Below are positions 47,490 to 62,703 of a stretch of 64,000 nt of DNA, in pieces. The translations under genes and the position numbers were made by a program. Below the pieces are notes generated by a model. It had not been told where the DNA came from. It ran no database searches and was given only the letters and a program-made list of their open reading frames with translations. The stretch is from Candidatus Paceibacter sp. (lineage in GTDB: Bacteria > Patescibacteriota > Patescibacteriia > S139-126), in the NCBI GenBank assembly GCA_020724865.1, contig DYGA01000002.1, forward strand, positions 12,032 to 76,031, given 5' to 3'. Numbering within the stretch: the first letter of the stretch is position 1; each line of letters starts with the position of its first letter.

Positions 47490-48935
47490 TTAGGGGGTAT
47501 TTTGATTGCCAATAACTATTACAAAATCAACTGGTTGCTTGTTCATTTGTAAATTTGGTTCTTGGTTTAATTTTTCTTGAAGTTCAAAAGGCAGCTCATC
47601 TTGAATAATTGCGCCTAATGATGATATTAAATAATCTCGCGAACTATTTTTATTTTTTTCAGTTAAATCATAAGCAATAGTTCGTTTCCAATCTCTAGTT
47701 GGGGCATTACCGGTAGCTAAAACTATATAACCGGCTTGGGTAAGAGTTTGCGAGGTTTCCGCTGCCAAGCCGGTGATATTGGTGCCATTGTAAATTATTA
47801 CTGTGCTAGCTTCATCTTGGATATTAGTTGTTGCGAAAATGTTATTGAAAAATTCATGAATTTTGGTCCAATCATTTCCGCGCGGACTTAAAACGTAAGC
47901 TCCAGTATCAGATATATAAGAATAGAGTAAACCGTCAGGGCTACTGTCTAATACTTTGTGAATTATATCTTCTGGTTTAATATTCCTACCCAATTGAGCC
48001 AAGCGTAAGGCTTCAAAAGCGTTTAAATTGGTATCAATATTGTCGGTGAGATTATTATATAGATCGTTGATTTTAATTGGGTTTAGCAGGGTACCGGCTG
48101 ACATAATTTTATTTTTTACAGCTATAAGTAAATTCATTTGTCGTCGCGAGCGAGAAAAATCTGAACCCTGACCATTGTTACCGTGTCGTGAACGTGCGTA
48201 TTGTAAAGCCCGTTCTCCATTCATATGTTCTATCCCTTTATTAAAAGATATAGTTTGGTAACCGTATTCATAGTCAGGATATTGATTGTCTGTAAAACTG
48301 TTTTCAATATTGACATCAACACCACCTAAATCATCAATAAGTTTTTTGAAACCATTGAAGTCAACTCTAATAAAATAGTCAATCGGTTGACCAATAACCT
48401 GACTAACCATTTGCGAACTAAAGGCTGCGCCACCGCCGGGATAGTTGTTACTTTCACCTAAAGCATTGGCACTATTTATTTTCCGCCAACCGTAACTACC
48501 CATATCTACATATAAGTCTCTGGGAATGGAAACCATCGCTAGTTGTTTGGTGGTAGTTTTAAAACTAACAACAATCATTGTATCAGTTAAATAGGCGCCG
48601 TCATGACCTTCACCGCCCATGCCTAACAGTAAAATATTAACCCGATCTCTTTGTTCGGCAGAGCTTAGTTTGTCGGCATTGGTAAACAGATGTTTAAAAC
48701 CAGCTAGCCAAGAAAAGTCATTTAAAGTGGCTCCCAGTGGGGTGGCAGAAATACGAATGTAGACGAACAGTGAACCTAAAAAAATCATTAAAGCCATAAC
48801 AAAAATAACACCTTTTATCAAACCGCGCCTAGAGTTAGATGGTTTAGTGATTAAATCACTTGTTTGATTAGCGTCGGAATTTTCGGTGTCAGATTTTAAA
48901 AAATCCAATTGTATGTCATTGTTTTGTTTAGACAT
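47490..48935 (-). CDS. LytR-CpsA-Psr (LCP) family cell-envelope phosphotransferase
   Basis: N-terminal TM; LCP core NILLLGMGGEG...DTMIVVSF...AMVSIPRDLYV; C-terminal LytR_C-like region. Confidence 0.8.
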   Translation of the reverse strand: MSKQNNDIQLDFLKSDTENSDANQTSDLITKPSNSRRGLIKGVIFVMALMIFLGSLFVYIRISATPLGATLNDFSWLAGFKHLFTNADKLSSAEQRDRVNILLLGMGGEGHDGAYLTDTMIVVSFKTTTKQLAMVSIPRDLYVDMGSYGWRKINSANALGESNNYPGGGAAFSSQMVSQVIGQPIDYFIRVDFNGFKKLIDDLGGVDVNIENSFTDNQYPDYEYGYQTISFNKGIEHMNGERALQYARSRHGNNGQGSDFSRSRRQMNLLIAVKNKIMSAGTLLNPIKINDLYNNLTDNIDTNLNAFEALRLAQLGRNIKPEDIIHKVLDSSPDGLLYSYISDTGAYVLSPRGNDWTKIHEFFNNIFATTNIQDEASTVIIYNGTNITGLAAETSQTLTQAGYIVLATGNAPTRDWKRTIAYDLTEKNKNSSRDYLISSLGAIIQDELPFELQEKLNQEPNLQMNKQPVDFVIVIGNQNTP

Positions 48936-49182
48936 AATTGTTGTTCGTATAGATAAGTCTATATAATAATACCTAAGAAACAGATATTAGGTCAATATAA
49001 ACATTTGCTTTTTTGTGATATTTTAAGTATTATAGCAACGACTTGAAAAGAGACCGTTTTTATTTTACACTTAGAACACTTTATGTAGCACACTTTATGT
49101 TTGTTTTTTGGAAATTTATTTAAGCATGGGTCAGTGGTATTTATTTAACAAATTTTCTTATTTTGCAGATTAAGTTTATTTT

Positions 49183-49259
<77 letters not shown>

Positions 49260-49349
49260 GTATTAAATTTAAATAAGAACAATTTTGACCATAATTTATT
49301 TAGCCAGTTAACAAAAATTATCAATATTATTGATAAAATATTAAAATTT

Positions 49350-49946
49350 ATGATAAACGACAAAGAGTTAAACAACGTTGCAAATAAACAGAAAGTCAAA
49401 GAATTTATTTTGGAAATAATTAGAATTATTGTTATTTCTGTAGCTATTATCGTGCCAGTTCGTTATTATTTGATTCAACCCTTTTATGTTAAAGGAGCCA
49501 GTATGGAGCCGAATTTTCATGATCATGAGTATTTATTGATTGATGAAATCTCGTATCGTTTTCGAGAGCCAATGCGGGGGGAAATAGTAGTTTTTAAATT
49601 TCCTTTAAATACCAAGGAATTTTTTATTAAAAGGATAATTGGCTTACCTGGAGAGACGGTTGCTTTGCGAGACGGCAAGGTTTATATATATAATAATGAA
49701 AATCCAGAAGGATTTTTGTTGGATGAATCAAAATATTTGCCACCAGATGTTAAAACTCTGCCTATGGGTGAAAGTACATTTACTTTAGGGCGTGATGAAT
49801 ATTTTTTAATGGGTGATAATCGTGCCCGGAGTATGGATTCGCGCCAATTTGGCAGTGTTAAATCTGATTTAATTGTCGGTCGGACAATAATTCGTGGTTA
49901 TCCTTTTGATCGTTGGCAGACTTTTTTTACCACTTCTTTATATTAA
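49350..49946 (+). CDS. lepB: Signal peptidase I. The ORF-track start at 49224 overlaps tRNA-Val, so the start is more likely the Met at 49350.
   Basis: Catalytic Ser motif GASMEPNF; GDNRARSMDSR box. Confidence 0.8.
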   Translation: MINDKELNNVANKQKVKEFILEIIRIIVISVAIIVPVRYYLIQPFYVKGASMEPNFHDHEYLLIDEISYRFREPMRGEIVVFKFPLNTKEFFIKRIIGLPGETVALRDGKVYIYNNENPEGFLLDESKYLPPDVKTLPMGESTFTLGRDEYFLMGDNRARSMDSRQFGSVKSDLIVGRTIIRGYPFDRWQTFFTTSLY

Positions 49947-49952
49947 AAAAAT

Positions 49953-51320
49953 ATGATTAAAAAAAATACTAAAGAAGAAAATACAGAAAGAGTTGAAAAA
50001 TCAAAAAATCCTACGTTTCAGTTGGTAAGGGGCACTAAAGATATTTTACCTGATGAACAAAGTTACTTTCTCTGGATATTTGATCAGGTTAGGGCGGTGG
50101 CGAACAGTTATGGTTTTAGCTTGATTGAAACACCAATTATTGAAAAAACAAATTTATTTGTCAGAGGAGTAGGTAAACAAACCGATATAGTTGAAAAGGA
50201 GATGTTTTCTTTTACTGATCAGGGTAATGAAAATTTAACTTTACGTCCCGAGGGCACTGCCCCCGTAGCCAGAGCATATATTGAACACGGCATGGTTACT
50301 TGGCCGCAGCCAGTCAAGTTATGGTATTTTGGCAAAATGTTGCGCCACGAAAGACCTCAAGCCGGAAGGTTGCGCGAATTTCATCAGTTTGGTTTTGAGT
50401 CTTTGGGTAGTGATGATCCTATGATTGATGCGCAAATTATTTTCCTTAGTTATAAAATTATGAAACAGTTAGGTTTAGATGTATCAGTGGCTATCAATAG
50501 TATTGGCACAGAAGAATGTCGCAATCAATACAAAAAGGTTTTAGTGGATTATTTCCGTACTAAACGCAGTGAATTATCTGATGAAGCCAAAAAGTTACTC
50601 ACCAAAAATCCTTTGCGTATTTTAGATTCCAAAGATGAAAATTTATTACCAATTATTGAACAGGCTCCGCAAATTTTTGATTATTTAAGCAATGCCAGCC
50701 GTGAACATTTTTTAAAAGTCATGGATTATTTGGATGAACTTGATGTGCCTGTAATTTTGAAACCAACCTTGGTAAGGGGTTTGGATTACTATACTAAAAC
50801 TGTATTTGAAATTTGGTCTGGCGAAGAAGAAACATCCCGTCAATCAGCATTGGGCGGTGGTGGGCGTTATGATGATTTAGTTGAGTTGCTAGGTGGTAGA
50901 CCAACGCCAGCCGCGGGGGTTGCCGTAGGTGTCGAGCGAGTAATTAGTTTATTAAAAGAGAAAAACATTACTCCTCCAAGTGACTATCAGCCAGATATTT
51001 TTGTGGCGCAATTAGGCGAGGAGGCAAAGAGAAAAAGTTTGCTACTTTTTGAAGAATTACGTAGCGCCGGTATAAAAGTGGCAGAGAGCTTATCTAAAGA
51101 AGGCCTTAAATCACAGTTAGAAAAAGCTGATAAGTTGAAAGTAAAATATGCAATAATCTTAGGTCAAAAAGAAATTTTGGATGGAACAGTAATGTTACGT
51201 GACATGGAAAATGGCATACAAGAAGTAATAGATATGAAAAAAGTTGTAGTAGAAGTTAAAAAAAGGTTAGAAAAACAGATTCGTGTGCAAGCTGAACAAA
51301 TAAAAGAGGAAAAAGTATAA
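49953..51320 (+). CDS. hisS: Histidine--tRNA ligase
   Basis: Class II motifs (LRPEGTAP, RHERPQAGRLREFHQ, GGGRYD), C-terminal anticodon-binding domain. Confidence 0.9.
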   Translation: MIKKNTKEENTERVEKSKNPTFQLVRGTKDILPDEQSYFLWIFDQVRAVANSYGFSLIETPIIEKTNLFVRGVGKQTDIVEKEMFSFTDQGNENLTLRPEGTAPVARAYIEHGMVTWPQPVKLWYFGKMLRHERPQAGRLREFHQFGFESLGSDDPMIDAQIIFLSYKIMKQLGLDVSVAINSIGTEECRNQYKKVLVDYFRTKRSELSDEAKKLLTKNPLRILDSKDENLLPIIEQAPQIFDYLSNASREHFLKVMDYLDELDVPVILKPTLVRGLDYYTKTVFEIWSGEEETSRQSALGGGGRYDDLVELLGGRPTPAAGVAVGVERVISLLKEKNITPPSDYQPDIFVAQLGEEAKRKSLLLFEELRSAGIKVAESLSKEGLKSQLEKADKLKVKYAIILGQKEILDGTVMLRDMENGIQEVIDMKKVVVEVKKRLEKQIRVQAEQIKEEKV

Positions 51321-51414
51321 TGATTTTAGTTTGACAAATACCGGTAAAAAGTGTTATACTTAAAATAATTAATTAATTTAAAAAATAATTCTTTAGAAAG
51401 GAAGGTGTATTTAT

Positions 51415-51672
51415 CTGGTAGAGGTAAAAAGAAAAGAAAATGAATCTTTTGATCAATTTTTACGAAGGTTTACCAAGAAAAATAGAGATTCAGGCGTCTT
51501 GCTAGAAGCAAAAAAATTACGCTGGCACGAAAGAAAAAAAAATAAGCGGCAAAAAAAAGAATCTGCTTTACGCAAGATGAAAATTAATGAAAAAAAAGAA
51601 TGGCTTAAACGAATTGGTAAATTAGACGATTATACTGACAGCTTTGGTCGTGTAAAAATTAAAATAAAATAA
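51415..51672 (+). CDS. rpsU: 30S ribosomal protein S21, absent from the ORF track. No in-frame ATG/GTG/TTG start; the most plausible start is CTG at 51415 (9 nt after RBS aaaggaagg), or ATT at 51409.
   Basis: Translation ...VEVKRKENESFDQFLRRFTKKNRDSGVLLEAKKLRWHERKKNKRQKKESALRK... matches the S21 consensus (MPxIKVRENESFD.ALRRFKR...G). Confidence 0.6.
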   Translation: MVEVKRKENESFDQFLRRFTKKNRDSGVLLEAKKLRWHERKKNKRQKKESALRKMKINEKKEWLKRIGKLDDYTDSFGRVKIKIK

Positions 51673-51674
51673 AA

Positions 51675-52127
51675 ATGAATTTATCAAGCCAGTTGGAGCA
51701 AGATTTAAAAGACGCTTTAAAACAAGGTGATAAAGAAAAAGCGTTGACTTTGCGTATGTTGAAAGCTGGTTTGGTTAATGAACAGATAGCACAAAAAAAA
51801 GATAAAAATAGTTCTATTGCAGATGATGTATTCCTAGCAGTTTTAAAAAGAGAAGTAAAAAAAAGAAAAGAAGCTTTAGTCAGTTATGAGCAGGCAGGAA
51901 GAAAGGATTTGGCTGATAAAGAAAAAGCCGAACTTGATATCTTATTAAAATATTTACCAGCTCAGCTATCGGTTGAAGAGATTGCCAAGATAGTTGATGA
52001 TGTATTAGCTAATCTATCTGCGGGTGAAAAAAATATTGGTCAGGTAATGAAGCAAGTTTTAGCCAAAGTTGGTTCGCAAGCTGATGGTAAAACTGTTTCC
52101 GATATAGTTAAAAAGAAATTAGTTTAA
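51675..52127 (+). CDS. yqeY: GatB/YqeY-domain protein
   Basis: 150 aa; YqeY-like helical protein with a conserved N-terminus (L..DLK.A.K..D). Confidence 0.7.
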   Translation: MNLSSQLEQDLKDALKQGDKEKALTLRMLKAGLVNEQIAQKKDKNSSIADDVFLAVLKREVKKRKEALVSYEQAGRKDLADKEKAELDILLKYLPAQLSVEEIAKIVDDVLANLSAGEKNIGQVMKQVLAKVGSQADGKTVSDIVKKKLV

Positions 52128-52136
52128 ATAATTTCC

Positions 52137-55100
52137 ATGCAATTATTTTCTTTTCCGCAAAGCAGAATTTCGGAAAAACATTGTGCTTTTCCTGTTTTTG
52201 GTTCTCATTTTTTTAAATCATTTATAAATAATTTTCTAGCTACAATTATTTTGGGAGCTATTTTTTTTGTTCCTACTTTGGTTTCAGCGCAGGGTGTTGA
52301 TTTCGGATTGGGTTATGGCAGCGCAATTGGTTTGGGTACACAGGATATTAGGGAAACTGTAGCCAGAATTATCAAGATTGCTTTGGGGATTTTGGGCATT
52401 ATTGTTACTTTGATAATTATTTATGGTGGTTATGTTTGGATGACCGCGGGTGGTAGTGAACAAAAAGTTAGCTTAGCCAAAAAAATATTAATCAATGGGG
52501 TAATCGGTTTGGTTATTATTATTTTAGCTTACGCTTTGACAGTTTGGATTTTTAGAATAATTATTGGTGGTACGACTGGTGGCGGGAGTGGCAGTTGTGT
52601 TGAAGGTCAAATTAGCGGCTGTACCCGCTGTGTGGGCGGCACCTGGATATATGATGGGAGTATTCCTGGTTGTGTCTTGCCCGGAGCAGATTTTCGGGTG
52701 AAAAATATTCAAACAACTCACGGAGGAAATAACCCCGCTCAAGATGTTTATTTGTGTTCCCGGATACAATCAAATTTTAGCAATCGTATTGCTGCTCAAT
52801 CAGTAGCCGATGCTTTAAATGCTAATCAATTGAGAATTGATACCTTTGCTGGTAATTGGCAGGTGACCAGTAATGTTTTAACTTTCAAACATGATGATAA
52901 TTTATTTTCCATAAATACTGCCTATAGATTATTACTGCCTCGACAAGGTAATACCACACCATTGTTTGATCAAAACAACTTAAATTTAACCCAATGTGAT
53001 CCAATTGTGGGTTGTGCCAGTACTTTGGAGCATTTTACTTGGGATTTTGTTACTGGAGAAGATAATGATGATGTTGCTCCTGAAATAACCAATACTTATC
53101 CAGTATCTGATATAACCAGTCCAACTTATCCTGATCGTAATGTATCTCGTTCGCCAATAATGGAGGTAAATTTTTCGGAAAGTATTGATGCTACTTCAGT
53201 GGCTGATAGTAACGGTAATCCATTGGCTGGAGTAATAACTTTGGAGCGATTAAGCGATCGGGGAGGTAGCGTTGATTTAACTATACCTAACAATCAATTG
53301 GAAGTATATTTTACTAGCAATGGTTTTCGTTTTAATTTAATTGAACCAAATTTACTCGATAGTTTCCGTTGGTATCGAATTACTGTCCAAGGCGTAGAAG
53401 ATTTATGTGGTAATCAAATGGCTGCGCCCAGAGTCTGGGAGTTTCAAACCAATGACAGTTCCCCAGGGGTAAGAACTTGGTATCCTACCGGGACCAATCA
53501 GTGTTTGGATGTTGATGTAATTGTTGGTTTTAATAGTTCAATGTTTGATCAACAAGTTACTTTTGTTATTTCTGGCAGTGACGGCAGTGTTTATAGCGCC
53601 ACAATGAGACCATCCTTATTGGAACCAGGACCTTATCAGGTAGCTGGCAGCGGTGGTAGCTTATCCGTAGCTGATCCGGGGCAACCTTATAGTAACAATT
53701 TTAAATCTTTTGTTTTTAGAGCAAATAATGGTTGGCGCGCTAATACCACTTATTCTGTGACAATAACTACTGATTTAGTGATTAATACCAATGGTGATAC
53801 TTTGTCACATAATTGGAATTTTAGCACCTCGGATGCTGCTAGTTGTGTTTGTTCACCTTATATAATGTCGATTAATCCTAATCAGGGAATGGCCGGTCAG
53901 TGTGTGACGGTTCAAGGTAGATGTTTTACTGGTACTTCAGCTAAACCAGCTGAAATTACGAATGTATCAATTAATGGTCAAACTGTAACCGTTGGTGGTT
54001 CTGATAGTAATTATTTTACTACCAGCATTCCTGACAATTTACCAGTCGGCACGCAAGCGCCGGTGGTTGCCACTATTACTTATCAAGATCCAGAATTGGG
54101 GAGTATTACCAGTAATAACAATGTTAATTATTATGTTAATCAACCGGGTATATATAATGGTCCTTGCTTATGGTCAATAGTGCCATCACTTGGTTGCGCT
54201 GATACTAGTGTTACTTTAAATGGTATTAGATTTGGTACTGATCCGGGTAATTATCAAACTGATCAAAATAATGTAACTTTCAATTTAAACCGCAGAGCTA
54301 GGCAGTCAGATTTTAGTTTGTGGTCAGACACTTCAATTCGTACCCGGGTGCCTCAGGCAACAGTAGATGGTAATGTTTATGTAACTGCCAATAGTTTAGT
54401 AACCAATGGCGTGCCTTTTGATATGTCTTGTGGATCAGGAGGTGCCTGTTCGGCCGATCCTAATATTTGTAGTCCTAACCCCACCAGTTGCGCTGTTGGT
54501 TACGAATGTAATACTAGTTGTATTTGCCAAGCAGTAGGTGGGAGCGTAGGCGACCCTTGTTCTTCAGATCCCAATAGTTGTGTGCCAGACGATACTTTAT
54601 GTTCGAGTTCTTTGTTTTGTGATCCTAATAGTTGTACTTGTCAATCAAATGGTGAAACCACAACTCGATTTAACGTGATTGCTAATTGGCCGACTTGTGA
54701 AGGTGTGTGTGTAAATTCTGAAGTGGGTTTAAGATTTTCTACCAGCGTTGATCCGACTACTGTTACCAATGCCAATATTGCCATATTTGATTATCGGGAT
54801 AGTGGTTACACCCAAATGGTAGGCGAAGAACAAATTACTGTTTTCCTTAATTCTAGCACTAATGAAGTTTATATTTATCCCAACGGTGGTTTGTCTCGTG
54901 GTTATTATATGAGAGTGGTAGTTAGAAATGGAATTTTAAGTAGTAGCGGACAAACAATCCAGAATTTAAATTTTGATGAAGACGGTAACGGGGTAAATGA
55001 TAGTTATGCTTGGACCTTTAGTGCCGGTAACGAGACTTGTACTTTGACGGCAATAGAAAATAGTCCTGTCCTGATGACTTTCAATAACATCAACCAAAAT

Positions 55101-58100
55101 CAAACTATTTATGGCAGGGCTATATCCAGTCAGCAGTGCGGACCAAATCAATATGTCAATCCTTGGGATCATGATTGGAAATGGGAAGATACAAATAATG
55201 GCAATATTGCCAAAGTTACCAATCGAGATATAAATAATGATAATAAATATGATCCCGCTCAAACTGTTACTTCAATTGCAGCAGGCACTACGCAAATAAG
55301 AAGTGAAGTTGATAGTAATTTAACAGCTTTAAGTGATGTTATTGTTGGCAGTGGTAGTAGTGGTGTGGGGACAGTTTGCGATGCCGATCCAAATACTCCA
55401 CAGTGTGATCTAAATAATAACATCTGTGGCAATTTTGGTTTAGTCTGTGATCCTAATGCTAATTGTACCTGTCAGCAAGCAGGTTACACGCCTTTGACTC
55501 CCGGTGTGGTTAGTGTAATTCCTATTAATAATCAGACTGATGTTTGTCGTAATAGTATAGTTCAAGTCACTTTTAATCAAAAAATGGATACCGGTTCTAT
55601 TGTTTGGCAGTCCACATTCAAGATCAATGACAATGACCGTGATGATGTGAGAGGAAATTTGAATTTTATTACGGTCAACAATGGTGTCTATGGCTGTAAC
55701 AATCCTCAAGGTTGTACAGTGGTTAGATTTTATCCATCGCGAGCTTATGTTCAAAACAGTCTACACACGATAACACTGACTACTGGGATTAAAAATTTAT
55801 CCGGATTGTCACTACCTGCCAATTTTGTATCTAGTTTTACGACTGGTAGTCAGATTTGCAAAGTCAATACTGTTGACCTGCAGCCAAATTATCATTTATT
55901 TACCACTTTAAATGAGAGTGTAGTATATATGGCTACCGCTAAAGATTTACGCGGTGGTTTAGTAGCGCCAATCCCCGGTTTTTATGATTGGAATTGGCAG
56001 TGGGTCAAAGCTGATGATGATAATGTGGTCAATATGGAGGATGTTGGTAATCCTGACCGGAGAAATATTGTTGCCCAATCTAGTAATGGCCTAGCCAGAA
56101 TTAAAGCCACAGCAGAAATTACTACGGCTGATGTTTCAATTGGTGATAGTGTTGGCAGAAAAATTAGCGATAGTAGCGAGGCGGAAGTATTTATTTGCAT
56201 ATATCCTTGGCCAGCCACACCACCGATGCAGGATTCACAGTATGGTTTTCAAATGAAATATTGTCGCGGCAATGATAGCGCTAATTTGTTGGGTATGTTG
56301 TCAGATCCGACTAATTCTATTATTTCTCTTACCACTTCTGATCCAGATTTAGAAAGAGAATATTTATTTAATTATCTGGTTTCTTCTTTGCCCGTGGGCG
56401 GACAAACAGAACCATTTATTATCAGTAAATTACAAAGGTTTAAAATTGGTCAGTTATTAGTTTTATGGTGGAAAAACTTATTAGCTATGTTCAATAAACA
56501 GTCAGTTTGGGCACAGGTACCCCAAGATGTGATTGGATTGCGGATTTATAATAATCCTAATCGCTTGGGTCCGAGAGCTTGGTATGAACAAAAATCATTC
56601 CCCAAGGGTAATCCGCAAGATATTACTGTTGATGGATTTCCCGCCATAAAGGATGGTACTTCAGTTTATATACTTGGCCCTCGACGCGCGGGTTCAATTG
56701 AAACTTATATTTATGTTTTGTCTTACAATGATTTATCCAGTCAGAATAATATTGCCATTTTTAATCAGTTAATAAAAAATTTCCGTTTTTATACTTTAAC
56801 GCCGGAAGAAAAACCAGCCGTTGCAAGGGATTTAAAAAGATTGGCTGATGCCAGTTTTATAGCGACGCAATTAGAACGTTATAAAAATCGAACTGGAAAT
56901 TATCCAGCTTTGTCCGCGGGAAGTTATATTGCCGGCATGTCAACCAGTAAATGGCCTTCTTGGCAGGCTACTTTAGGAAACCAATTAGGTGTAAGTATTC
57001 CCAATGATCCAATTAATAAATTTGCCAGTTATTGCTCTAATAATCCCAATCAAAGTTGTTGGCAAAATAGTGATTGTGGCACTGGACAGTGTTTATCAGG
57101 TTGTGGCGAAGAGGCAAATCCTGATACCTGTTGGAACGAAGTGACTCAAGAATATTCTTGTCCGGCTGGTTCAGCAGTTTATCAGTACCGACGTTATGGG
57201 ACTAATGATTTTCGTATTGGTGTATTATTGGAAGTAAATGATTATGAAGCTTTGCCAACTTATTTAGATGTAAATGAAGCTTATTGTAATGGTACTATTT
57301 ATACTGGCGATGGTTTTTGCGGTGATGGCATAGTTCAAGCATCTTTAGGGGAGCAGTGTGAAGTAGGGCAACAAATTTTAGCCTGCAATCCTACTTGGCC
57401 CAATTATTACAATCCTATTTATCAGCAATGTGAATCAGATTGTAGTTGGCCTGATGCTCAAGTATCTACTTGTGGCGGTTATTGTGGTGATGGTGTATTA
57501 CAGTCAAGTAATGAAATTTGTGATGGCACTGCCGGTCTGGGAGGAGTAGGGCCAGCCACTTGTTATACTGATTGCAGTGGTTTTTATTGTAATCCCGGTT
57601 ATGTTTTAGTAGGCGGTGTTTGTCAGCTTGATTGGTGCAATCCTGCTACTCAGGATTGTTCTAGTCAAATACCCAATGGCAATGGTCAATATCAATCTTG
57701 TAATTATGTCAGTGGTAATTGGCAGTGGTCAGATTGTCAGGTAACCAGTTGTAACCCCGGTTATGTGATTAGTGGAAATAGTTGTGTTTTACCTCAACCC
57801 ACAGTAACTATAACTAGCCCAGCTAACAATACTAACGGCGGCAGTAGTGTTACTATGACTTTTGTAGTAAATCAAGGTGGGGTATACAACGTGCTGCGTG
57901 ACGGAGTGATTGTTTATACCACCGGTGTCAATGCCGGAACTTATACTTACAATTTTACTGGACTAACTGCTGGACCTCATGTTTTAGGAGTATCTATTAC
58001 CAATGCCAATGGCACTGGTAATGCGCAAATAAACTATACTGTTAATCCACCACCTCAACCCACAGTAACTATAACTAGCCCAGCTAACAATACTAACGGC

Positions 58101-60164
58101 GGCAGTAGTGTTACTATGACTTTTGTAGTAAATCAAGGTGGGGTATACAACGTGCTGCGTGACGGAGTGATTGTTTATACCACCGGTGTCAATGCCGGAA
58201 CTTATACTTACAATTTTACTGGACTAACTGCTGGACCTCATGTTTTAGGAGTATCTATTACCAATGCCAATGGCACTGGTAATGCGCAAATAAACTATAC
58301 TGTTAATCCACCACCTCAACCCACAGTTACTATTACTAACCCTACTAATGGTAGTACTGGCACTAGCACTGTTTTTCTAACCTTTAATATTAGTCAAAGT
58401 GGAGTATATACCATTTCGCGCAACGGCTCACTTGTTTATACTAGTGGCAACGTAGCAACTGGTAGTCATACTTATGTTTTGGGGGGATTGTCACCCGGAC
58501 CACATATTTTAGGTGTATCTATTACCAATGCCAATGGTACGGGTAATGCTCAAGTTATTTACAATGTTAATCCACCCCCGCCAGATCCGCCGACCGTTAC
58601 TATAAACAGTCCTGCCAATAATACCACGGGTGGTAGTAGCGTGACTATGAATTTTACGATTAGTCAAAATGGTACTTATAATATTTTACGTAATGGGGTG
58701 GGTATTGCCACCAGCACTGTATCAGCCGGAACCTATACTTATACTTTCAACAATTTAACTAATGGTAATTATATTTTAGGAGTATCTATTACCAATGCCA
58801 ATGGCACTGGTAATGCGCAAATAAACTATACTGCCAATACACCTCCCCCTACCGTCACTATCAATAGTCCTGCTGATGGCGGCACTAGTAATTCTAGTAT
58901 TGTTGTTATGCAATATACAGTTAGTGCCGCAGTAACAGCTTCATTTTTTGTTGATGGTTCTTTGGTAGGTGGAACCAGTCATAGTAGTAGTGGCACATAC
59001 AGCTTTGATTTTACTGGTCTTACTAATGGTACTCATATATTACAGGTCAATGTTAGTAATTCTTATGGGAATGCTAGTGCTCAAATTACTTACAATATAA
59101 GTGTGCCGCCGGTTGTTACTATTTTAAGTCCGGTTAACAATAGTAGTGGTGGTAGTAGCGTGGTAATGCAATTTAATATTAGCCAGGCTGGAACTTATAG
59201 ATTATTTTTGGATGCCACACCAGTATTTACTACCACTGCTAACGCTGGAACTTATACGTATAATTATACTGGTTTAACCACCGGTAGTCATGTCTTGCGA
59301 GTAGAATTATCAAACAGTTATGGTAATGATAGTGATCAAGTAACATATAATAAGATAGCAGAAATACCAGCTGCTCCGTCGGGATTAACTGCTGTTGCCA
59401 GTGGTAATAATATAACTTTAAATTGGACAGATAATTCTAACAATGAAACAAATTTTGTAATTGATCGGGCAGTTGGTAGTCCAACATCTTGGACGATTGG
59501 GTATACTATGGTTGGTGCCAATGTTACCACCTTCCAAGATACTGGTTTATCAGATGATACATATTATTATCGAATTCGAGCAGAAAATGTTGATGGTTTT
59601 AGTGCTTACTCCAATACAGCTAGTGCCGTAGTGTTATCACAAGCTACCATTTTTGTTTCCAGTCTTTCAACGCAGGGCAATGTGGGTGCTGGTTATATAG
59701 AAAATGTTGATCAATTTTGCCAAAACTTAGCTAATGCTTCAAGTTTAGTCAGACCTGGACAATGGCGGGCTTGGATTTCAGGTTTGTCAATGTCAGGGAT
59801 CAATATAAACGCAAAAGGACATTTTACTGGCTATCAATCTGTCCCATTATATAATAAAAGTAGTTCAAATATGTTTTTAGTCGCTAGTAATGTGTCAGCA
59901 TTATGGACCACTGGAATTCAAGCAAATGTTTTGTATGATGAAAATGGGATTAGTAGGCCGACTGATATCTATACTGGTACTTATAGTGATGGCTCAGCTT
60001 CTGGTATAAATTGTAATAATTGGTCAAATAATACTTGGTATTATGGTGGAGGAGTTGGCGTAAATGATTATTATCCTATTGCAGGTCTTCCTCTTTGGAC
60101 TAATTCTCATCAACTTAGTTGTAATATGAACGCAAATATTTATTGTATTTGGTATAGACCATAA
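52137..60164 (+). CDS. Giant (2675 aa) cell-surface protein. Layout: N-terminal signal-like segment plus two hydrophobic helices (membrane hairpin), long Cys/Asn/Thr/Gly-rich region with clustered Cys knots, six ~87-aa Ig-like tandem repeats, an FN3 domain, and a C-terminal Cys-containing globular (lectin-like?) domain.
   Basis: Continuous ORF. Repeats QPTVTITSPANNTNGGSSVTM...GVSITNANGTGNAQINYTVNPPP x6 (two identical at the DNA level). FN3-like APSGLTAVASGNNITLNWTDNSNNETNFVIDRA...YYYRIRAENVDGFS. Confidence 0.7.
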   Translation: MQLFSFPQSRISEKHCAFPVFGSHFFKSFINNFLATIILGAIFFVPTLVSAQGVDFGLGYGSAIGLGTQDIRETVARIIKIALGILGIIVTLIIIYGGYVWMTAGGSEQKVSLAKKILINGVIGLVIIILAYALTVWIFRIIIGGTTGGGSGSCVEGQISGCTRCVGGTWIYDGSIPGCVLPGADFRVKNIQTTHGGNNPAQDVYLCSRIQSNFSNRIAAQSVADALNANQLRIDTFAGNWQVTSNVLTFKHDDNLFSINTAYRLLLPRQGNTTPLFDQNNLNLTQCDPIVGCASTLEHFTWDFVTGEDNDDVAPEITNTYPVSDITSPTYPDRNVSRSPIMEVNFSESIDATSVADSNGNPLAGVITLERLSDRGGSVDLTIPNNQLEVYFTSNGFRFNLIEPNLLDSFRWYRITVQGVEDLCGNQMAAPRVWEFQTNDSSPGVRTWYPTGTNQCLDVDVIVGFNSSMFDQQVTFVISGSDGSVYSATMRPSLLEPGPYQVAGSGGSLSVADPGQPYSNNFKSFVFRANNGWRANTTYSVTITTDLVINTNGDTLSHNWNFSTSDAASCVCSPYIMSINPNQGMAGQCVTVQGRCFTGTSAKPAEITNVSINGQTVTVGGSDSNYFTTSIPDNLPVGTQAPVVATITYQDPELGSITSNNNVNYYVNQPGIYNGPCLWSIVPSLGCADTSVTLNGIRFGTDPGNYQTDQNNVTFNLNRRARQSDFSLWSDTSIRTRVPQATVDGNVYVTANSLVTNGVPFDMSCGSGGACSADPNICSPNPTSCAVGYECNTSCICQAVGGSVGDPCSSDPNSCVPDDTLCSSSLFCDPNSCTCQSNGETTTRFNVIANWPTCEGVCVNSEVGLRFSTSVDPTTVTNANIAIFDYRDSGYTQMVGEEQITVFLNSSTNEVYIYPNGGLSRGYYMRVVVRNGILSSSGQTIQNLNFDEDGNGVNDSYAWTFSAGNETCTLTAIENSPVLMTFNNINQNQTIYGRAISSQQCGPNQYVNPWDHDWKWEDTNNGNIAKVTNRDINNDNKYDPAQTVTSIAAGTTQIRSEVDSNLTALSDVIVGSGSSGVGTVCDADPNTPQCDLNNNICGNFGLVCDPNANCTCQQAGYTPLTPGVVSVIPINNQTDVCRNSIVQVTFNQKMDTGSIVWQSTFKINDNDRDDVRGNLNFITVNNGVYGCNNPQGCTVVRFYPSRAYVQNSLHTITLTTGIKNLSGLSLPANFVSSFTTGSQICKVNTVDLQPNYHLFTTLNESVVYMATAKDLRGGLVAPIPGFYDWNWQWVKADDDNVVNMEDVGNPDRRNIVAQSSNGLARIKATAEITTADVSIGDSVGRKISDSSEAEVFICIYPWPATPPMQDSQYGFQMKYCRGNDSANLLGMLSDPTNSIISLTTSDPDLEREYLFNYLVSSLPVGGQTEPFIISKLQRFKIGQLLVLWWKNLLAMFNKQSVWAQVPQDVIGLRIYNNPNRLGPRAWYEQKSFPKGNPQDITVDGFPAIKDGTSVYILGPRRAGSIETYIYVLSYNDLSSQNNIAIFNQLIKNFRFYTLTPEEKPAVARDLKRLADASFIATQLERYKNRTGNYPALSAGSYIAGMSTSKWPSWQATLGNQLGVSIPNDPINKFASYCSNNPNQSCWQNSDCGTGQCLSGCGEEANPDTCWNEVTQEYSCPAGSAVYQYRRYGTNDFRIGVLLEVNDYEALPTYLDVNEAYCNGTIYTGDGFCGDGIVQASLGEQCEVGQQILACNPTWPNYYNPIYQQCESDCSWPDAQVSTCGGYCGDGVLQSSNEICDGTAGLGGVGPATCYTDCSGFYCNPGYVLVGGVCQLDWCNPATQDCSSQIPNGNGQYQSCNYVSGNWQWSDCQVTSCNPGYVISGNSCVLPQPTVTITSPANNTNGGSSVTMTFVVNQGGVYNVLRDGVIVYTTGVNAGTYTYNFTGLTAGPHVLGVSITNANGTGNAQINYTVNPPPQPTVTITSPANNTNGGSSVTMTFVVNQGGVYNVLRDGVIVYTTGVNAGTYTYNFTGLTAGPHVLGVSITNANGTGNAQINYTVNPPPQPTVTITNPTNGSTGTSTVFLTFNISQSGVYTISRNGSLVYTSGNVATGSHTYVLGGLSPGPHILGVSITNANGTGNAQVIYNVNPPPPDPPTVTINSPANNTTGGSSVTMNFTISQNGTYNILRNGVGIATSTVSAGTYTYTFNNLTNGNYILGVSITNANGTGNAQINYTANTPPPTVTINSPADGGTSNSSIVVMQYTVSAAVTASFFVDGSLVGGTSHSSSGTYSFDFTGLTNGTHILQVNVSNSYGNASAQITYNISVPPVVTILSPVNNSSGGSSVVMQFNISQAGTYRLFLDATPVFTTTANAGTYTYNYTGLTTGSHVLRVELSNSYGNDSDQVTYNKIAEIPAAPSGLTAVASGNNITLNWTDNSNNETNFVIDRAVGSPTSWTIGYTMVGANVTTFQDTGLSDDTYYYRIRAENVDGFSAYSNTASAVVLSQATIFVSSLSTQGNVGAGYIENVDQFCQNLANASSLVRPGQWRAWISGLSMSGININAKGHFTGYQSVPLYNKSSSNMFLVASNVSALWTTGIQANVLYDENGISRPTDIYTGTYSDGSASGINCNNWSNNTWYYGGGVGVNDYYPIAGLPLWTNSHQLSCNMNANIYCIWYRP
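57792..58313. repeat. Perfect in-frame tandem duplication, 2 x 261 bp (57792-58052 and 58053-58313), encoding two identical 87-aa Ig-like repeats inside the giant gene
   Basis: Base-by-base comparison; identity continues ~14 nt into the third, diverged repeat. Confidence 0.85.
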
Positions 60165-60169: not shown

Positions 60170-60661
60170 ATGGAAGAAATTAATCAAAAAGTAAAAGAAT
60201 TTAAAGAAAAAAGAAAAATTAAATTTCTAATTATTTTATTGTTAGTTTTAATTGTTGTAACCGCTGGAATAATATATTTTTTTTGGAACAATGAAATAAA
60301 GTTGGCGATGCGTGGTCGGGATGGCAAACAAGTAGATTTAACCATTGGTAATAAAGAGGTTATAGATGCCACGCTTGATTCTGATGGCGACGGGTTGACT
60401 GATGTTATAGAAAATCGTCTAGGCACTGATAAAAATAAGACTGACTCTGATAATGATGGTATTATTGATGGCGAAGAATTGATGGGTTGGGGGACTAATC
60501 CTCTCAAATTAGATAGTGATAATGATGGGTTGTCTGATTATAATGAAGTTAAAGCTTATGGTACTGATCCGCTAAAACCAGATAGTGATGAGGATGGTTT
60601 TGCTGACGGTTGGGAAGTTTTTAATAATTTTAACCCCAAAGGAAAAGGAAAGTTAGAATAA
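60170..60661 (+). CDS. Membrane-anchored protein with thrombospondin type-3-like Ca-binding repeats (DxDxDGxxDxxE)
   Basis: N-terminal TM; DSDGDGLTDVIE, DSDNDGIIDGEE, DSDNDGLSDYNE, DSDEDGFADGWE. Confidence 0.65.
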   Translation: MEEINQKVKEFKEKRKIKFLIILLLVLIVVTAGIIYFFWNNEIKLAMRGRDGKQVDLTIGNKEVIDATLDSDGDGLTDVIENRLGTDKNKTDSDNDGIIDGEELMGWGTNPLKLDSDNDGLSDYNEVKAYGTDPLKPDSDEDGFADGWEVFNNFNPKGKGKLE

Positions 60662-60712
60662 TTATAATTTTTTTTGTATAATAATATTATAATAAAATAT
60701 TATTGATATCTT

Positions 60713-61354
60713 ATGTTTGATGATATAAAAAATAATAGCCAAATTATGAATGATAATAGTTCTGATAAAAATGTTTCTAAGCCAGTGGAAGATATTTTTT
60801 CCGAAACAGAAAAAAACAATCCCACTCCTCAACTGCAGGAAATTTTAGATACAAATACTATGCCCGCTGCTTATCAGCCAACTAATAATATGTATGAATC
60901 GGGTAAGAATAAAAAAAATGTATTAAAGTTATTGTTACTAATTATTTTTGTTGCCATTGTGGGAATAGGTGGTTATATTGCTTATGGTATGTATCAAGAT
61001 AGTCAGGTTAAAAAAGTTTTAAATGAACCAGAAACATCTTCAGTTAACAACGATGAAAATTCTTCTAATACTAACTCCGATGTTACTATTATCTCAGGAA
61101 ATGTAGTTGATACTGACAATGACGGTTTATCAGATCAAGAAGAGTCTACCTTTGGTACTGATATAAATTTGCCCGATACAGATAGTGACAATTTATTTGA
61201 TCGGGAGGAAATAAAAATTTATGGAACCGATCCTTTGAATTCCGATACTGACGGTGATGGTTATCTTGATGGTGATGAGGTTAAAGCAGGTTATAATCCA
61301 TTGGGACCAGGCAGGTTATGGCCGGAAAATCCCAATCCAAATATTGAAGAATAA
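60713..61354 (+). CDS. Paralogous membrane-anchored TSP3-repeat protein
   Basis: TM helix; DTDNDGLSDQEE, DTDSDNLFDREE, DTDGDGYLDGDE. Confidence 0.65.
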   Translation: MFDDIKNNSQIMNDNSSDKNVSKPVEDIFSETEKNNPTPQLQEILDTNTMPAAYQPTNNMYESGKNKKNVLKLLLLIIFVAIVGIGGYIAYGMYQDSQVKKVLNEPETSSVNNDENSSNTNSDVTIISGNVVDTDNDGLSDQEESTFGTDINLPDTDSDNLFDREEIKIYGTDPLNSDTDGDGYLDGDEVKAGYNPLGPGRLWPENPNPNIEE

Positions 61355-61362
61355 ATATATTT

Positions 61363-62703
61363 ATGGTTTCAGAACAGAGTAATTTTGATCAATTCAATAG
61401 TTATGACCAAGCCCCGGCTATTTATACCATGCCAGAAAAATTTTTGCCTAAGCAAAAGAAACAAAAAAATAAATCTGGTAAAGGTATAATAATTTTTTTG
61501 TATTTTTTGATCGCTGTAGTTTTGATTGGAGCTGGTTTTGCTGTGTGGTTTTTATTTTTAAGACAGGAACCAGAAGTTATTGAACAGCCAAAAGTTATAC
61601 CCCAGGTAAATATAACCAATCCGACTAGTACACCAGCGGTGCAAGAGGAAATTACTCCGGTTGAAGTTAAATTTGTTGCGCGTGATGCACAGGGTAATGA
61701 GTTCTCCCACGTTTTGATCAAATTAACTGATGTTGATACTGAATTAGCAGAAAAAATCAAAGTAACATCATTATTGCCTGAACAAATGACTGGAAGAGCT
61801 AGTCGTGCCATTGGGGCTATTTATTTATTTACCATAGAAGACAGTAAAAATTTATCTCGCCCCACCACTTTTATTTTTTCTTATACAGAACCTGATGATT
61901 TAACAAGTAAAAAGGAGAACAGCTTGCAATTAGCAGAAGAAATATCACCCGGTACTTGGAAGTATTTGACCGGTAGTAAACTTGATATAGTAGCCAATAC
62001 TATAAGCATAGAACTATCGTCTTTCCCTCAAGGACAAGTAACTATTTTGTCGAATTTAGAAGAAGAAGAAAATTTTGATTTTTACAACCCTCTGTCCGAT
62101 GAACAACCACAAGATAATGACATTTTAGTAACAACTCCTTTAAGTTCAACTTTAGATTCTGACAACGATGGTTTAACTGATGTTGAAGAACAGCTTTATA
62201 AATCTAACCCATCTTTACCCGATACTGATGGAGATGGATTTTTAGATGGGCAGGAGGTAATTAATAAATATAGTCCAATTAGCGCTGATAGTTTATTAGC
62301 TGCTGGTTTAGTTAATGAATATAAAAATGATGATATGAAAATAAGTTTATTTTATCCATCTAGCTGGACAGTAAGAATTGGTAATGCGGAAACACAATCG
62401 GTTTCTTTCGAATCAAGTGGTGATGATTTTATTCAGATTTCTATTCAAGATAATCCTGATAATTTAGATGTTTATGCTTGGTATAGTAAATTGGCTCCCA
62501 ATATTGATCAAACCTTACTTGCTAAAACTACAATTGCTGGTTTAGACGCTATTTATTCTCCAGATATGGCCAACTTATATGTAGCGCAAAATAACAAAAT
62601 ATATATTTTGACCTATAGTGCTGGGTTAAAAACTCAAGTAGATTATTTGACTACTTTTGCAATGATGCAGGCCAGTTTAAACTTTTTAACAAATGGCAAT
62701 TAA
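61363..62703 (+). CDS. Larger paralogous membrane-anchored protein with TSP3-type repeats and N- and C-terminal globular domains
   Basis: TM helix; DSDNDGLTDVEE...DTDGDGFLDGQE. Confidence 0.6.
   Translation: MVSEQSNFDQFNSYDQAPAIYTMPEKFLPKQKKQKNKSGKGIIIFLYFLIAVVLIGAGFAVWFLFLRQEPEVIEQPKVIPQVNITNPTSTPAVQEEITPVEVKFVARDAQGNEFSHVLIKLTDVDTELAEKIKVTSLLPEQMTGRASRAIGAIYLFTIEDSKNLSRPTTFIFSYTEPDDLTSKKENSLQLAEEISPGTWKYLTGSKLDIVANTISIELSSFPQGQVTILSNLEEEENFDFYNPLSDEQPQDNDILVTTPLSSTLDSDNDGLTDVEEQLYKSNPSLPDTDGDGFLDGQEVINKYSPISADSLLAAGLVNEYKNDDMKISLFYPSSWTVRIGNAETQSVSFESSGDDFIQISIQDNPDNLDVYAWYSKLAPNIDQTLLAKTTIAGLDAIYSPDMANLYVAQNNKIYILTYSAGLKTQVDYLTTFAMMQASLNFLTNGN

What the first reader, a model, noticed from the sequence alone, without database searches (positions are those of the whole stretch)
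57792..58313. Perfect 261-bp in-frame tandem duplication inside the giant gene
Two 87-aa Ig-like repeats are identical at every nucleotide, while the other four repeats have diverged. That points to a very recent unequal crossover or slippage event, and hence ongoing repeat-number variation (phase or antigenic variation, or length tuning of the stalk).
Basis: seen in the sequence. Interest (0 to 1): 0.5.

Follow-up and report, generated by a model that had tools for sequence, protein, structure and literature searches.

The report
Identical Ig-domain pair, giant CPR protein
Two neighbouring 87-residue Ig-like domains in a 2,675-residue surface protein of an uncultivated Patescibacteria bacterium really are identical at every base, most likely because neighbouring repeat units keep overwriting each other by recombination; this is a known, fairly ordinary behaviour of repetitive bacterial surface proteins.

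Summary
Window 57792-58052 equals 58053-58313 (261 nt, no mismatches), and the exact period-261 identity runs from 57791 to 58327. It lies in frame in ORF 52137-60164.

The duplication is not an artefact of this assembly. k=31 contigs from three other sequencing runs end at 57820, which is where a de Bruijn simulation predicts a break only if the unit-to-unit junction exists.

The pair is probably not a new duplication. Syntenic orthologues in three other species also carry six units with two R1-type units at the same position. Within-genome pairs are 82-100% identical, against 74-82% between genomes. Two of the pairs are mosaics with exact tracts of 134-148 nt. This is concerted evolution, complete in this lineage.

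Variation in repeat number is suggested but not proven. A JGI contig identical over 62 kb has five units. The same contig is also single-copy at an unrelated perfect 254-bp duplication (25820-26331), so assembler collapse is as likely as a real deletion. Its only two point differences (58328, 58334) convert R3 to the R1/R2 state, which points to recent exchange between units.

Phase variation is not supported. Length tuning is untested, and six units are conserved across species. This is a new member of a known kind, of modest interest.

The parts
52137..60164 (+). Giant gene (2,675 aa). It encodes an N-terminally anchored multidomain surface protein of a Patescibacteria/CPR bacterium.
   Evidence: ORF list. 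Pfam T4SS_pilin, Big_5 x4-5, Big_7, TcfC E-set. Homologues are named Patescibacteria, Kerfeldbacteria, Nomurabacteria and similar. The protein is identical to P0121 from a 179,160-nt NCBI contig.
52215..52577 (+). Signal-peptide-like segment (aa 27-55) and the two hydrophobic helices of the T4SS_pilin domain (aa 73-106, 110-147). This is the inferred membrane anchor.
   Evidence: PF18895 scores 40.3 bits on the N-terminal fragment and 36.3 bits on the whole protein, against a cut-off of 26.6. These are the only hydrophobic segments in the protein. The outward orientation of the remaining residues is inferred from the known VirB2/TrbC topology.
57792..58052 (+). Unit R1 (87 aa, Ig-like).
58053..58313 (+). 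Unit R2, identical to R1 at all 261 nt.
   Evidence: Junction supported by contig ends at 57820 in three other runs.
57791..58327 (+). Full extent of the exact period-261 repeat: two 261-nt units plus 15 nt of R3 that still match the unit start (ACCTCAACCCACAGT).
58314..58577 (+). Unit R3 (88 aa), 69% nt identity to R1. Sites 58328 and 58334 (T,T here) are A,A (the R1/R2 state) in JGI contig Ga0246236_1000010.
   Evidence: The outgroup R3-type units read GTT ACT ATT (L002) and GTG ACT ATT (L003, L006). The T at 58334 therefore matches all three outgroups, and the T at 58328 matches L002 only.
58578..58844 (+). Unit R4 (89 aa), 71% nt identity to R1 overall.
58774..58833 (+). 60-nt tract in R4 that is exactly identical to 57982-58041 (R1) and 58243-58302 (R2). 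It looks like a gene-conversion tract between non-adjacent units.
   Evidence: Permutation gives p=4e-5 for 20 consecutive synonymous-identical codons, and no shuffle of 100,000 reached the observed run at the nucleotide level. Logan contigs L018, L022 and L024 start at 58804 and the NCBI contig L020 at 58779, as predicted for this repeat.
58845..59366 (+). Units R5 and R6 (87 aa each), the most diverged. Both score above the Pfam Big_7 gathering threshold on their own.
   Evidence: 31.0 and 25.4 bits against 24.1..
59367..59621 (+). Fibronectin type III domain following the array.
   Evidence: Pfam fn3 below threshold. phmmer match to titin Fn3, E=4.3e-13.
59622..60161 (+). C-terminal 180-aa domain with four Cys. 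It resembles DUF1554 weakly and its function is unknown. It is the distal end of the protein.
   Evidence: PF07588 scores 24.4 bits, below the 27.5 cut-off. It is shared only with the four close orthologues. The AlphaFold2 model failed, pLDDT 31.

Best explanation
R1 and R2 are the first two of six Big_7-type Ig-like domains. The domains are joined by short proline-rich linkers (NPPPQP, NPPPPDPP, NTPPP, SVPP). They form a stalk near the C-terminus of a 2,675-aa protein held in the membrane by an N-terminal T4SS-pilin-like hairpin. A pair of R1-type units at this position is the ancestral, conserved state of the gene in this group of species. What is recent is homogenisation. Homologous exchange between the adjacent, already similar units has erased every difference between them in this lineage. 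The exchange was either non-reciprocal gene conversion, or loss of one unit followed by re-duplication through unequal exchange on the 15-nt repeat flanking R1. This is concerted evolution carried to completion. The resulting 276-nt perfect direct repeat is now a good substrate for RecA-type unequal recombination or replication slippage, so gain or loss of an 87-aa unit is expected. That has not yet been shown. Shown here: the identity, its reality in reads, the six-unit architecture in relatives, mosaic identity tracts, and conversion-like SNPs. Inferred: the enzymology (RecA or slippage), the surface location, and the stalk function.
For: 1. The duplication is real. The identity is exact. 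Contigs from three other runs, representing strains 0-0.8% diverged, end at 57820, and downstream contigs start at 58804. Both positions match a k=31 graph simulation of the six-unit allele only.
2. The pair is ancestral. The syntenic orthologues L002, L006 and L004 each have six units with two R1-type units at the same position. In L006 the two units differ at 22 of 112 sites (19.6%) in offsets 24-136, similar to the divergence between species (17-29%).
3. Evolution is concerted. In a neighbour-joining tree of all units, R1-type pairs cluster by genome, whereas R3, R4, R5 and R6 cluster by orthology. Within-genome pairs are 100% (window), about 90% (L006), 88% (L002) and 82-83% (L004) identical, against 74-82% between genomes.
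4. The pairs are mosaics. The L006 pair has all 27 differences in the first 136 nt and an exact 148-nt period-261 run. L004 has a 134-nt run. Permutation gave no shuffle of 20,000 reaching the observed run for L006, and p=3.5e-4 for L004. A 60-nt exact tract links R1/R2 with the non-adjacent R4.
5. Exchange is ongoing. Over 62 kb the JGI contig differs from the window by only two point changes, 58328 and 58334. Both convert the 5' end of R3 to the R1/R2 state. The window's T at 58334 matches all three outgroups, and the T at 58328 matches L002.
6. High identity between adjacent units is specific to this orthologue group. Only 2 of 120 homologues have adjacent units at least 70% identical.
Against: Full-length identity cannot by itself separate conversion from a fresh duplication. 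The identity block is exactly one unit plus 15 nt of flanking microhomology, which is also what a de novo microhomology-mediated duplication would leave. The same window holds a clearly de novo perfect 254-bp duplication (25820-26331), so this lineage does make such duplications. In the tree the window's unit sits nearer L003_u1/L006_u1 than any u2, which is compatible with loss of u2 and re-duplication of u1. L002's pair shows no significant mosaicism (p=0.26). Orthology of u1 and u2 across species rests on few sites. No reads were available, so the copy number (2 or more) is not verified.
Confidence: 0.6

Rival explanations
1. A five-unit ancestor underwent a very recent de novo tandem duplication of R1, by unequal crossover or slippage on the 15-nt repeat ACCTCAACCCACAGT that flanks R1. 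The number of units now varies within populations, tuning the length of the stalk in the manner of Periscope proteins.
For: The identity block is exactly one unit plus 15 nt of microhomology. A contig identical over 62 kb has five units. L003 (five units) and L006 (six units) are 98.7% identical. Contig L027 from run SRR6488387 passes 57820 without the break expected from the R1-to-R2 junction. A second perfect duplication of similar size (254 bp) in the same window shows that de novo duplications occur in this lineage.
Against: Six units with an R1-type pair are found in four species, including the outgroup L004. The L006 pair is old in its middle segment. Both five-unit assemblies equal the loop-collapsed form of a six-unit gene. 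The JGI contig is also single-copy at the unrelated 254-bp duplication, while other runs show that duplication's break points at 25849 and 26302, and no short contig carries the intact PEBP gene. A strain 0.8% diverged (L029) already has the junction signature, so the event is not younger than the strain divergence.
Confidence: 0.25
2. The two identical copies are an assembly product. The true genome has one copy, or it has three or more and the assembler traversed a graph loop the minimum number of times.
For: A perfect 276-nt repeat exceeds every short-read k-mer size. Two full-length assemblies of essentially the same genome disagree, six units against five. In the window both perfect repeats have exactly 2.0-2.1 copies, the default result of traversing a loop once. 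All other short-read assemblies break inside the array.
Against: A one-copy truth is contradicted by contig ends at exactly 57820 in three independent runs, which require a second predecessor for the first 30 nt of R1. The duplication is in frame and in register with the domain period, and it restores the six-unit architecture seen in three other species. A copy number above two cannot be excluded with these tools.
Confidence: 0.1
3. The repeat is a programmed phase-variation or antigenic-variation device. Changes in repeat number would switch or disguise the surface protein to evade a host or predator.
For: The protein is predicted to be exposed on the surface. Deletion of identical repeats changes recognition in the streptococcal alpha C and Rib proteins, as summarised in PMC8201768.
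Against: The unit is 87 codons long and in frame, so gain or loss cannot switch expression. There is no short-repeat tract, invertible element or silent cassette near the array. Only two of the six units are identical. The copy number is conserved at six in four species. Polymorphism between strains in the gene is mostly synonymous, 38 synonymous to 16 non-synonymous.
Confidence: 0.03

Closest known systems
Periscope Proteins (SasG, Rib/alpha C, Sgo_0707, CdrA, Esp), as described by Whelan et al. 2021, PMC8201768
   Same: It is a predicted surface protein with a tandem array of folded Ig-like (E-set) domains joined by short proline-containing linkers. Adjacent domains have unusually high DNA and protein identity: 100% for R1-R2, 62% for R2-R3 and 56% for R3-R4. 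That is above the <50% the paper gives as usual for adjacent domains. Such identity is the substrate the paper proposes for intragenic recombination.
   Different: Only two of the six units are identical. The unit number is six in four species, and the only deviations (five units) may be assembly collapses. The anchor is an N-terminal T4SS-pilin-like hairpin, not a C-terminal LPXTG or outer-membrane anchor. The array therefore lies far from the anchor and would project only an Fn3 domain plus a 180-aa domain of unknown function. Neither rod shape nor length variation has been demonstrated.
Concerted evolution of tandem repeats by gene conversion or unequal crossing-over (general population-genetic process; from my own knowledge, classic examples are rDNA arrays and repeats in bacterial surface proteins)
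   Same: Paralogous units within a genome are more alike than orthologous units between genomes. Identity is mosaic, with sharp tract boundaries. Tracts straddle unit junctions.
   Different: Nothing essential differs. This is a small array (effectively two to four participating units) in an uncultivated CPR bacterium, and the enzymology has not been tested.
Giant Ig-rich surface proteins of Patescibacteria with an N-terminal T4SS_pilin (PF18895) domain
   Same: More than 100 homologues of 1,500-4,500 aa share the architecture of PF18895 plus Big_5, with or without TIG, Big_7 or LamG domains. The window's protein is one of them.
   Different: Near-identical adjacent units occur only in this orthologue group, in 2 of 120 homologues. 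The Big_7 x6 + Fn3 + DUF1554-like C-terminal module is shared only with the four closest relatives.
Simple-sequence contingency loci (phase variation through 1-9 nt repeats)
   Same: The DNA is repetitive and prone to recombination or slippage, and it lies inside a gene for a surface protein.
   Different: The unit is 261 nt long and in frame, so there is no frameshift or promoter-spacing switch. It is not a member of this class.

Membership tests
Pfam Big_7 (PF17957) / E-set Ig-like domain | HMM score at or above the gathering threshold (24.1 bits) | tested here: met
   The whole protein scores 57.2 bits. R5 scores 31.0 and R6 25.4 on their own. R1 scores 18.6, R3 22.0 and R4 23.5, each below threshold alone, but they align with R5 and R6 at 35-51% identity.
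Pfam Big_7 (PF17957) / E-set Ig-like domain | Beta-sandwich fold | tested here: met
   The AlphaFold2 model of R1-R2 has pLDDT 96.4 and 8 strands per unit. The top Foldseek hits in the PDB are tandem Fn3/Ig modules: 3pdd, titin Z1Z2 and protein 4.2.
Periscope Proteins (PMC8201768) | Located at the cell surface | not testable with these tools
   Location is inferred from the signal-like segment plus the T4SS_pilin hairpin, with no other hydrophobic segment in the protein. There is no experimental localisation.
Periscope Proteins (PMC8201768) | Tandem array of long repeats that are highly identical at the DNA level | tested here: inconclusive
   R1 and R2 are 100% identical. R1-R3 is 69%, R1-R4 71%, and R5/R6 52-58%. 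Only one pair qualifies.
Periscope Proteins (PMC8201768) | Repeat number varies between closely related strains | tested here: inconclusive
   Six against five units in window vs L001 and in L006 vs L003. Both five-unit forms equal loop-collapsed assemblies, and L001's contig also collapses the 254-bp duplication. Six units are present in four species.
Periscope Proteins (PMC8201768) | Elongated rod with short, proline-containing linkers that projects a functional domain away from the cell | tested here: inconclusive
   The linkers NPPPQP, NPPPPDPP, NTPPP and SVPP are visible in the sequence. The relative orientation of the domains in the model was not examined. The distal Fn3 plus 180-aa domain has no known function.
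Rib / alpha C protein family | Rib domain (Pfam PF08428) repeats | tested here: not met
   No Rib hit appeared in Pfam scans of the whole protein or of single units at E up to 1.
Simple-sequence contingency (phase-variation) locus | Short repeat unit whose copy number changes the reading frame or promoter spacing | tested here: not met
   The unit is 261 nt (87 codons) and in frame. No short-period tract lies in or next to the gene.
T4SS_pilin-anchored giant proteins of Patescibacteria | N-terminal PF18895 domain above threshold, followed by a long multidomain Ig-rich region | tested here: met
   PF18895 scores 36.3 bits on the whole protein and 40.3 bits on the N-terminal fragment, against 26.6, at aa 69-138. 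Big_5 domains occupy aa about 310-1240. More than 100 homologues share this architecture.

The most novel reading that the evidence does not exclude
Natural populations of this Patescibacteria species really do carry alleles of the array with five, six and perhaps more units. On this reading the JGI five-unit allele, with its R2/R3 chimeric junction, is a genuine recombinant. The giant protein would then be a Periscope-type variable-length adhesin in a CPR bacterium, built with the opposite polarity (N-terminal pilin-like anchor, distal C-terminal head). Frequent recombination between units would both homogenise and resize the stalk that presents the head to a host cell.
Probability: 0.2. Interest if true: 0.5.

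Novelty: new member of a known kind. Interest (0 to 1): 0.3.

Why it matters
The case shows that a perfect in-frame repeat in a metagenome-assembled genome can be validated, and partly dated, without reads. The method is to combine orthologue architecture with the break points of independent k-mer assemblies.

Biologically, it adds an example from the Candidate Phyla Radiation to the known pattern of surface-protein domain arrays evolving in concert. These organisms are thought to live attached to other cells, and their giant surface proteins are almost entirely uncharacterised. It also flags a 276-nt recombination substrate in such a protein.

If real variation in unit number were shown, length-variable adhesins would extend to a new phylum and a new anchoring topology. 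As it stands, the mechanism is conventional, and the practical message is caution. Assemblies of this gene disagree exactly at perfect repeats.

Tried and rejected
1. An exact-protein look-up of the window's giant protein in the gene-position index found nothing. The same sequence is nevertheless in the protein collection as P0121, so the source contig could not be fetched.
2. Two protein searches with sub-fragments of the array returned no hits, even though P0001 contains those residues. This looks like a limit of the index. As a result, mid-array fragments from other runs could not be recovered, and those fragments would have separated the 5-unit, 6-unit-TT and 6-unit-AA alleles.
3. AlphaFold2 on the C-terminal 180 aa with four orthologues gave pLDDT 31, so no fold search was run. 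phmmer against the PDB found only the Fn3 domain and nothing for aa 1401-1885.
4. The degenerate DNA scans returned only four related contigs. The genome-collection scan gave L004, L006 and L002 and the metagenome-collection scan gave L003. No further strains of the window's species were found.
5. A literature search for Patescibacteria giant or T4SS-pilin proteins gave nothing relevant.
6. I considered and rejected the idea that the duplication is a contig-overlap artefact. It is in register with the domain period, it restores the conserved six-unit architecture, and it is supported by k-mer break points.
7. I considered and rejected selection for an identical protein sequence as the cause. 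It cannot explain identity at all of the roughly 60 synonymous sites.
8. I first read the comparison with the JGI contig as clean proof of copy-number polymorphism. I withdrew that after finding the same contig single-copy at the 254-bp duplication.
9. I checked for a group I intron near the tRNA cluster and GIY-YIG ORF and found none.
Full report
**1. Observation**

Window 57792-58052 and 58053-58313 are identical at all 261 positions. The period-261 identity runs for 276 nt, so the exact block is 57791-58327. TRF reports period 261 and 2.1 copies.

The block lies in frame 0 of the ORF at 52137-60164 (2,675 aa), and one unit is 87 codons. Six units can be delimited:
- R1 57792-58052
- R2 58053-58313
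- R3 58314-58577
- R4 58578-58844
- R5 58845-59105
- R6 59106-59366

Apart from R1=R2, identity to R1 is 69% (R3), 71% (R4), 52% (R5) and 57% (R6) in nucleotides, and 62%, 70%, 42% and 51% in protein.

**2. The gene**

Pfam finds the following:
- an N-terminal T4SS_pilin domain at aa 69-138
- four to five Big_5 Ig-like domains between aa about 310 and 1240
- Big_7/E-set matches over the six units
- a sub-threshold fn3 domain after them
- a weak DUF1554-like C-terminal domain

A titin Fn3 match at E=4e-13 confirms the Fn3 domain. The only hydrophobic segments are aa 27-55, 73-106 and 110-147. From the established topology of VirB2/TrbC pilins, I infer that residues about 150-2675 lie outside the cell.

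An AlphaFold2 model of R1-R2 is confident (pLDDT 96.4) and shows two eight-stranded beta-sandwiches. Its best PDB matches are tandem Fn3/Ig modules.

More than 100 homologues have the same overall architecture, and those that carry a name come from Patescibacteria/CPR. The window has about 34% G+C and ordinary housekeeping neighbours: Der GTPase, a LytR-family protein, signal peptidase, HisRS and YqeY upstream, and three TSP3-repeat proteins downstream.

**3. Is the duplication real?**

The window's protein is identical to P0121, from a 179,160-nt NCBI contig. No reads were available, so I used independent assemblies of other sequencing runs (Logan, k=31).
- Contigs L028 (SRR5011275, 100% identical to the window), L030 (SRR24079451, 99.94%) and L029 (SRR32929652, 99.17%) all end at exactly 57820.
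- Downstream contigs L018, L022 and L024 all start at 58804.
- A k=31 de Bruijn simulation of the window predicts precisely these unitig ends. The end at 57820 arises because the first 30 nt of R1 acquire a second predecessor from the R1-to-R2 junction. The start at 58804 arises from the 60-nt tract shared with R4.
- The same simulation predicts 58011, not 57820, for either possible five-unit allele.

The unit-to-unit junction therefore exists in the reads of several samples and strains. What cannot be settled is whether the number of identical copies is exactly two, because a short-read assembler reports two for any perfect loop.

**4. Relatives**

Four syntenic orthologues were recovered.

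| Locus | Source | aa identity to window | Units |
|---|---|---|---|
| L002 | GCA_964493305.1 | 81% | 6 |
| L006 | CAZINS010000001.1 | not determined (about 79% nt) | 6 |
| L003 | GCA_013328955.1 | 74% | 5 |
| L004 | GCA_964620905.1 | 63% | 6 |

L002, L006 and L004 each have two R1-type units at the same position in the array. In a neighbour-joining tree of all units, R3, R4, R5 and R6 group by orthology, while the R1-type units group by genome. Within-genome pairs are 100% (window), about 90% (L006), 88% (L002) and 82-83% (L004) identical, against 74-82% between genomes.

The pairs are mosaics.
- In L006 all 27 differences lie in the first 136 nt. The last 125 nt plus the first 23 nt of the next unit form a 148-nt exact period-261 run.
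- L004 has a 134-nt run.
- The window has a 276-nt run.
- Permutation tests gave no shuffle of 20,000 reaching the observed run for L006, p=3.5e-4 for L004 and p=0.26 for L002.

In the unconverted middle segment the two L006 units are 19.6% diverged, as much as units of different species. The pair is therefore old.

Inside the window, R1/R2 and the non-adjacent R4 share a 60-nt exact tract within an otherwise 71%-identical pair. Twenty consecutive synonymous-identical codons give p=4e-5.

Among 120 homologues, only members of this orthologue group have adjacent units at least 70% identical.

Taken together this is the classic signature of concerted evolution by gene conversion and/or unequal exchange. 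The window is the case where homogenisation is complete.

**5. Copy-number variation?**

The best hit, P0001 (JGI 3300029893, contig Ga0246236_1000010, 346 kb), is the same protein minus one 87-aa unit. Its DNA matches the window over about 62 kb (1925-64000). There are only four differences:
- one 261-nt unit
- two synonymous sites at 58328 and 58334 (T,T in the window; A,A, the R1/R2 state, in the JGI contig)
- one 254-nt unit at a second, unrelated perfect tandem duplication (window 25820-26331, period 254, 2.0 copies, 100% matches)

Outgroup R3-type units read GTT ACT ATT (L002) and GTG ACT ATT (L003, L006). The window's T at 58334 is therefore ancestral on all three outgroups, and the T at 58328 matches L002 only. 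On that basis the A,A state is derived. The JGI junction (…ACAGTAACTATAACTA|ACCCTACT…) cannot be produced from the window's k-mers, so it is a real sequence variant. It is the signature of an exchange between R1/R2 and R3.

The missing unit is ambiguous. At the 254-bp locus, other runs show the break points expected for two copies.
- L037 and L039 start at 26302.
- The length of L011's contig puts its end at 25849.
- Only two contigs on record carry the intact PEBP gene, against 10-15 for its neighbours.

The JGI contig is the only fetched assembly that crosses both loci with a single copy. A six-unit allele with a converted R3, collapsed by the assembler, reproduces that contig exactly. So does a real unequal crossover.

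Likewise L003 (five units) is 98.7% identical to L006 (six units) and equals L006 with the loop on its 148-nt exact run skipped.

One contig, L027 from SRR6488387, passes 57820 without a break and stops at 57855. That hints at a sample lacking the junction, but it remains unexplained.

I therefore regard polymorphism in unit number as plausible but not demonstrated. Six units in four species argues that length is conserved rather than freely tuned.

**6. Mechanism**

Shown: exact identity, the reality of the junction, an ancestral R1-type pair, mosaic tracts that straddle unit junctions, and conversion-like polymorphism.

Inferred: adjacent units, already 80-90% alike, exchange sequence by RecA-type gene conversion or by cycles of unit loss and re-duplication. 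The 15-nt repeat ACCTCAACCCACAGT flanks R1. In this lineage one such event covered the whole unit.

A rough clock comes from strain L029, which has 38 synonymous and 16 non-synonymous differences in 5.7 kb. On that rate, about 2.6 differences would be expected between R1 and R2 had they last been identical when these strains split. None is seen (P about 0.07), so homogenisation is probably more recent than that split, or it recurs.

The functional consequence is two identical Ig domains side by side. Multidomain proteins usually avoid this (PMC8201768). The array presumably acts as a spacer that carries the Fn3 domain and the C-terminal domain.

**7. Comparison with known systems**

The closest concept is the Periscope Protein class (PMC8201768). 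These are surface proteins whose stalks of highly identical tandem domains change length by intragenic recombination.

The window's protein shares the domain type, the proline-rich linkers, the high identity between adjacent domains and the recombination substrate. It fails or leaves open the defining features: only one identical pair, unit number conserved at six, and variation unproven. Its polarity is also reversed, with an N-terminal anchor. It is not a Rib-family protein (no Rib domain) and not a contingency locus (an 87-codon in-frame unit).

**8. Verdict**

This is a real feature, correctly observed. Its best explanation is concerted evolution of an ancestral domain pair, not a brand-new duplication. 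Variation in repeat number is possible but unproven, and phase variation is unsupported. It is a new member of a known kind, of modest interest (0.3). The most novel reading still open is a length-variable, pilin-anchored adhesin in a CPR bacterium. I give that about 0.2 probability.

Noticed in passing
window 25820-26331: A second perfect tandem duplication: period 254 (not a multiple of 3), 2.0 copies, 100% identity. It covers the last 131 nt of the PEBP-family gene (25459-25950) plus the AT-rich spacer, with a 4-nt AATT microhomology at the junction. The otherwise identical JGI contig has one copy. Logan contigs from other runs start at 26302, and one ends at 25849, as expected for two copies. 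Only 2 contigs on record carry the intact PEBP gene.
   Followed up: partly
window 57982-58041, 58243-58302 and 58774-58833: A 60-nt tract is exactly identical in R1, R2 and the non-adjacent R4, although R1 and R4 are otherwise about 63% identical. It looks like a gene-conversion tract (p=4e-5 on synonymous codons). It is also where all short-read assemblies of this gene break.
   Followed up: yes
window 58328 and 58334 (L001 15931 and 15937): These are the only two point differences between the window and JGI contig Ga0246236_1000010 over about 62 kb. Both are synonymous, and both change the 5' end of R3 to the R1/R2 state in the JGI contig. The window's T at 58334 matches all three outgroups, and the T at 58328 matches L002.
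   Followed up: yes
L027 (Logan SRR6488387_14), window 43422-57855: This contig is 100% identical to the window. It runs through 57820, where three other runs break, and stops at 57855, which neither simulated allele predicts. It may indicate a sample without the R1-to-R2 junction or with a variant R2.
   Followed up: partly
L006 (reverse complement 6549-7331) compared with L003 6412-6933: A sister species shows the same contrast. L006 has six units and L003 has five, at 98.7% nucleotide identity. The extra L006 unit is a mosaic: its first 23 nt match the next unit, its middle is about 20% diverged, and its last 125 nt match the previous unit.
   Followed up: yes
window 60170-62703: Three consecutive genes encode proteins with bacterial thrombospondin type 3 (TSP3_bac) repeats directly downstream of the giant gene. 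The same order is found in all four related genomes, so they may be partners of the giant protein.
   Followed up: no
window about 6260-14396: A cluster of metal and arsenic handling genes in a small CPR genome: ArsR-type HTH_5, a thioredoxin-like protein, an ArsP permease, a CsoR-type repressor, an HMA+DsbD_2 protein and an HMA P-type ATPase. A second cation P-type ATPase lies at 19134-21635 (annotation of L009).
   Followed up: no
window 49183-49259 and 49224-49946: The mechanically listed 240-aa ORF for signal peptidase (GTG start at 49224) overlaps tRNA-Val. Annotated relatives use a 198-aa product, so the true start is probably about 49350. Three Logan contigs begin at 49202-49204, inside the tRNA, probably because other organisms in those samples share the tRNA sequence.
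   Followed up: no
window 30590-31213 and 60140-60161: A sortase gene lies in the window, but the giant protein ends in ...NIYCIWYRP and has no LPXTG-type sorting signal. It is therefore unlikely to be a sortase substrate.
   Followed up: no
window 31855-32479: A cluster of two tRNA-Met genes and one tRNA-Leu lies next to a 78-aa GIY-YIG endonuclease ORF (about 32243-32479, minus strand). No group I intron or other Rfam family was detected there, apart from a sub-threshold YrlA-like match that overlaps the two tRNA-Met genes.
   Followed up: partly
tool behaviour: the search for homologous proteins returned no hits for 379-aa and 168-aa fragments of the giant protein, although P0001 and P0121 contain them exactly. 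Negative results from that tool for sub-fragments should not be read as absence.
   Followed up: no
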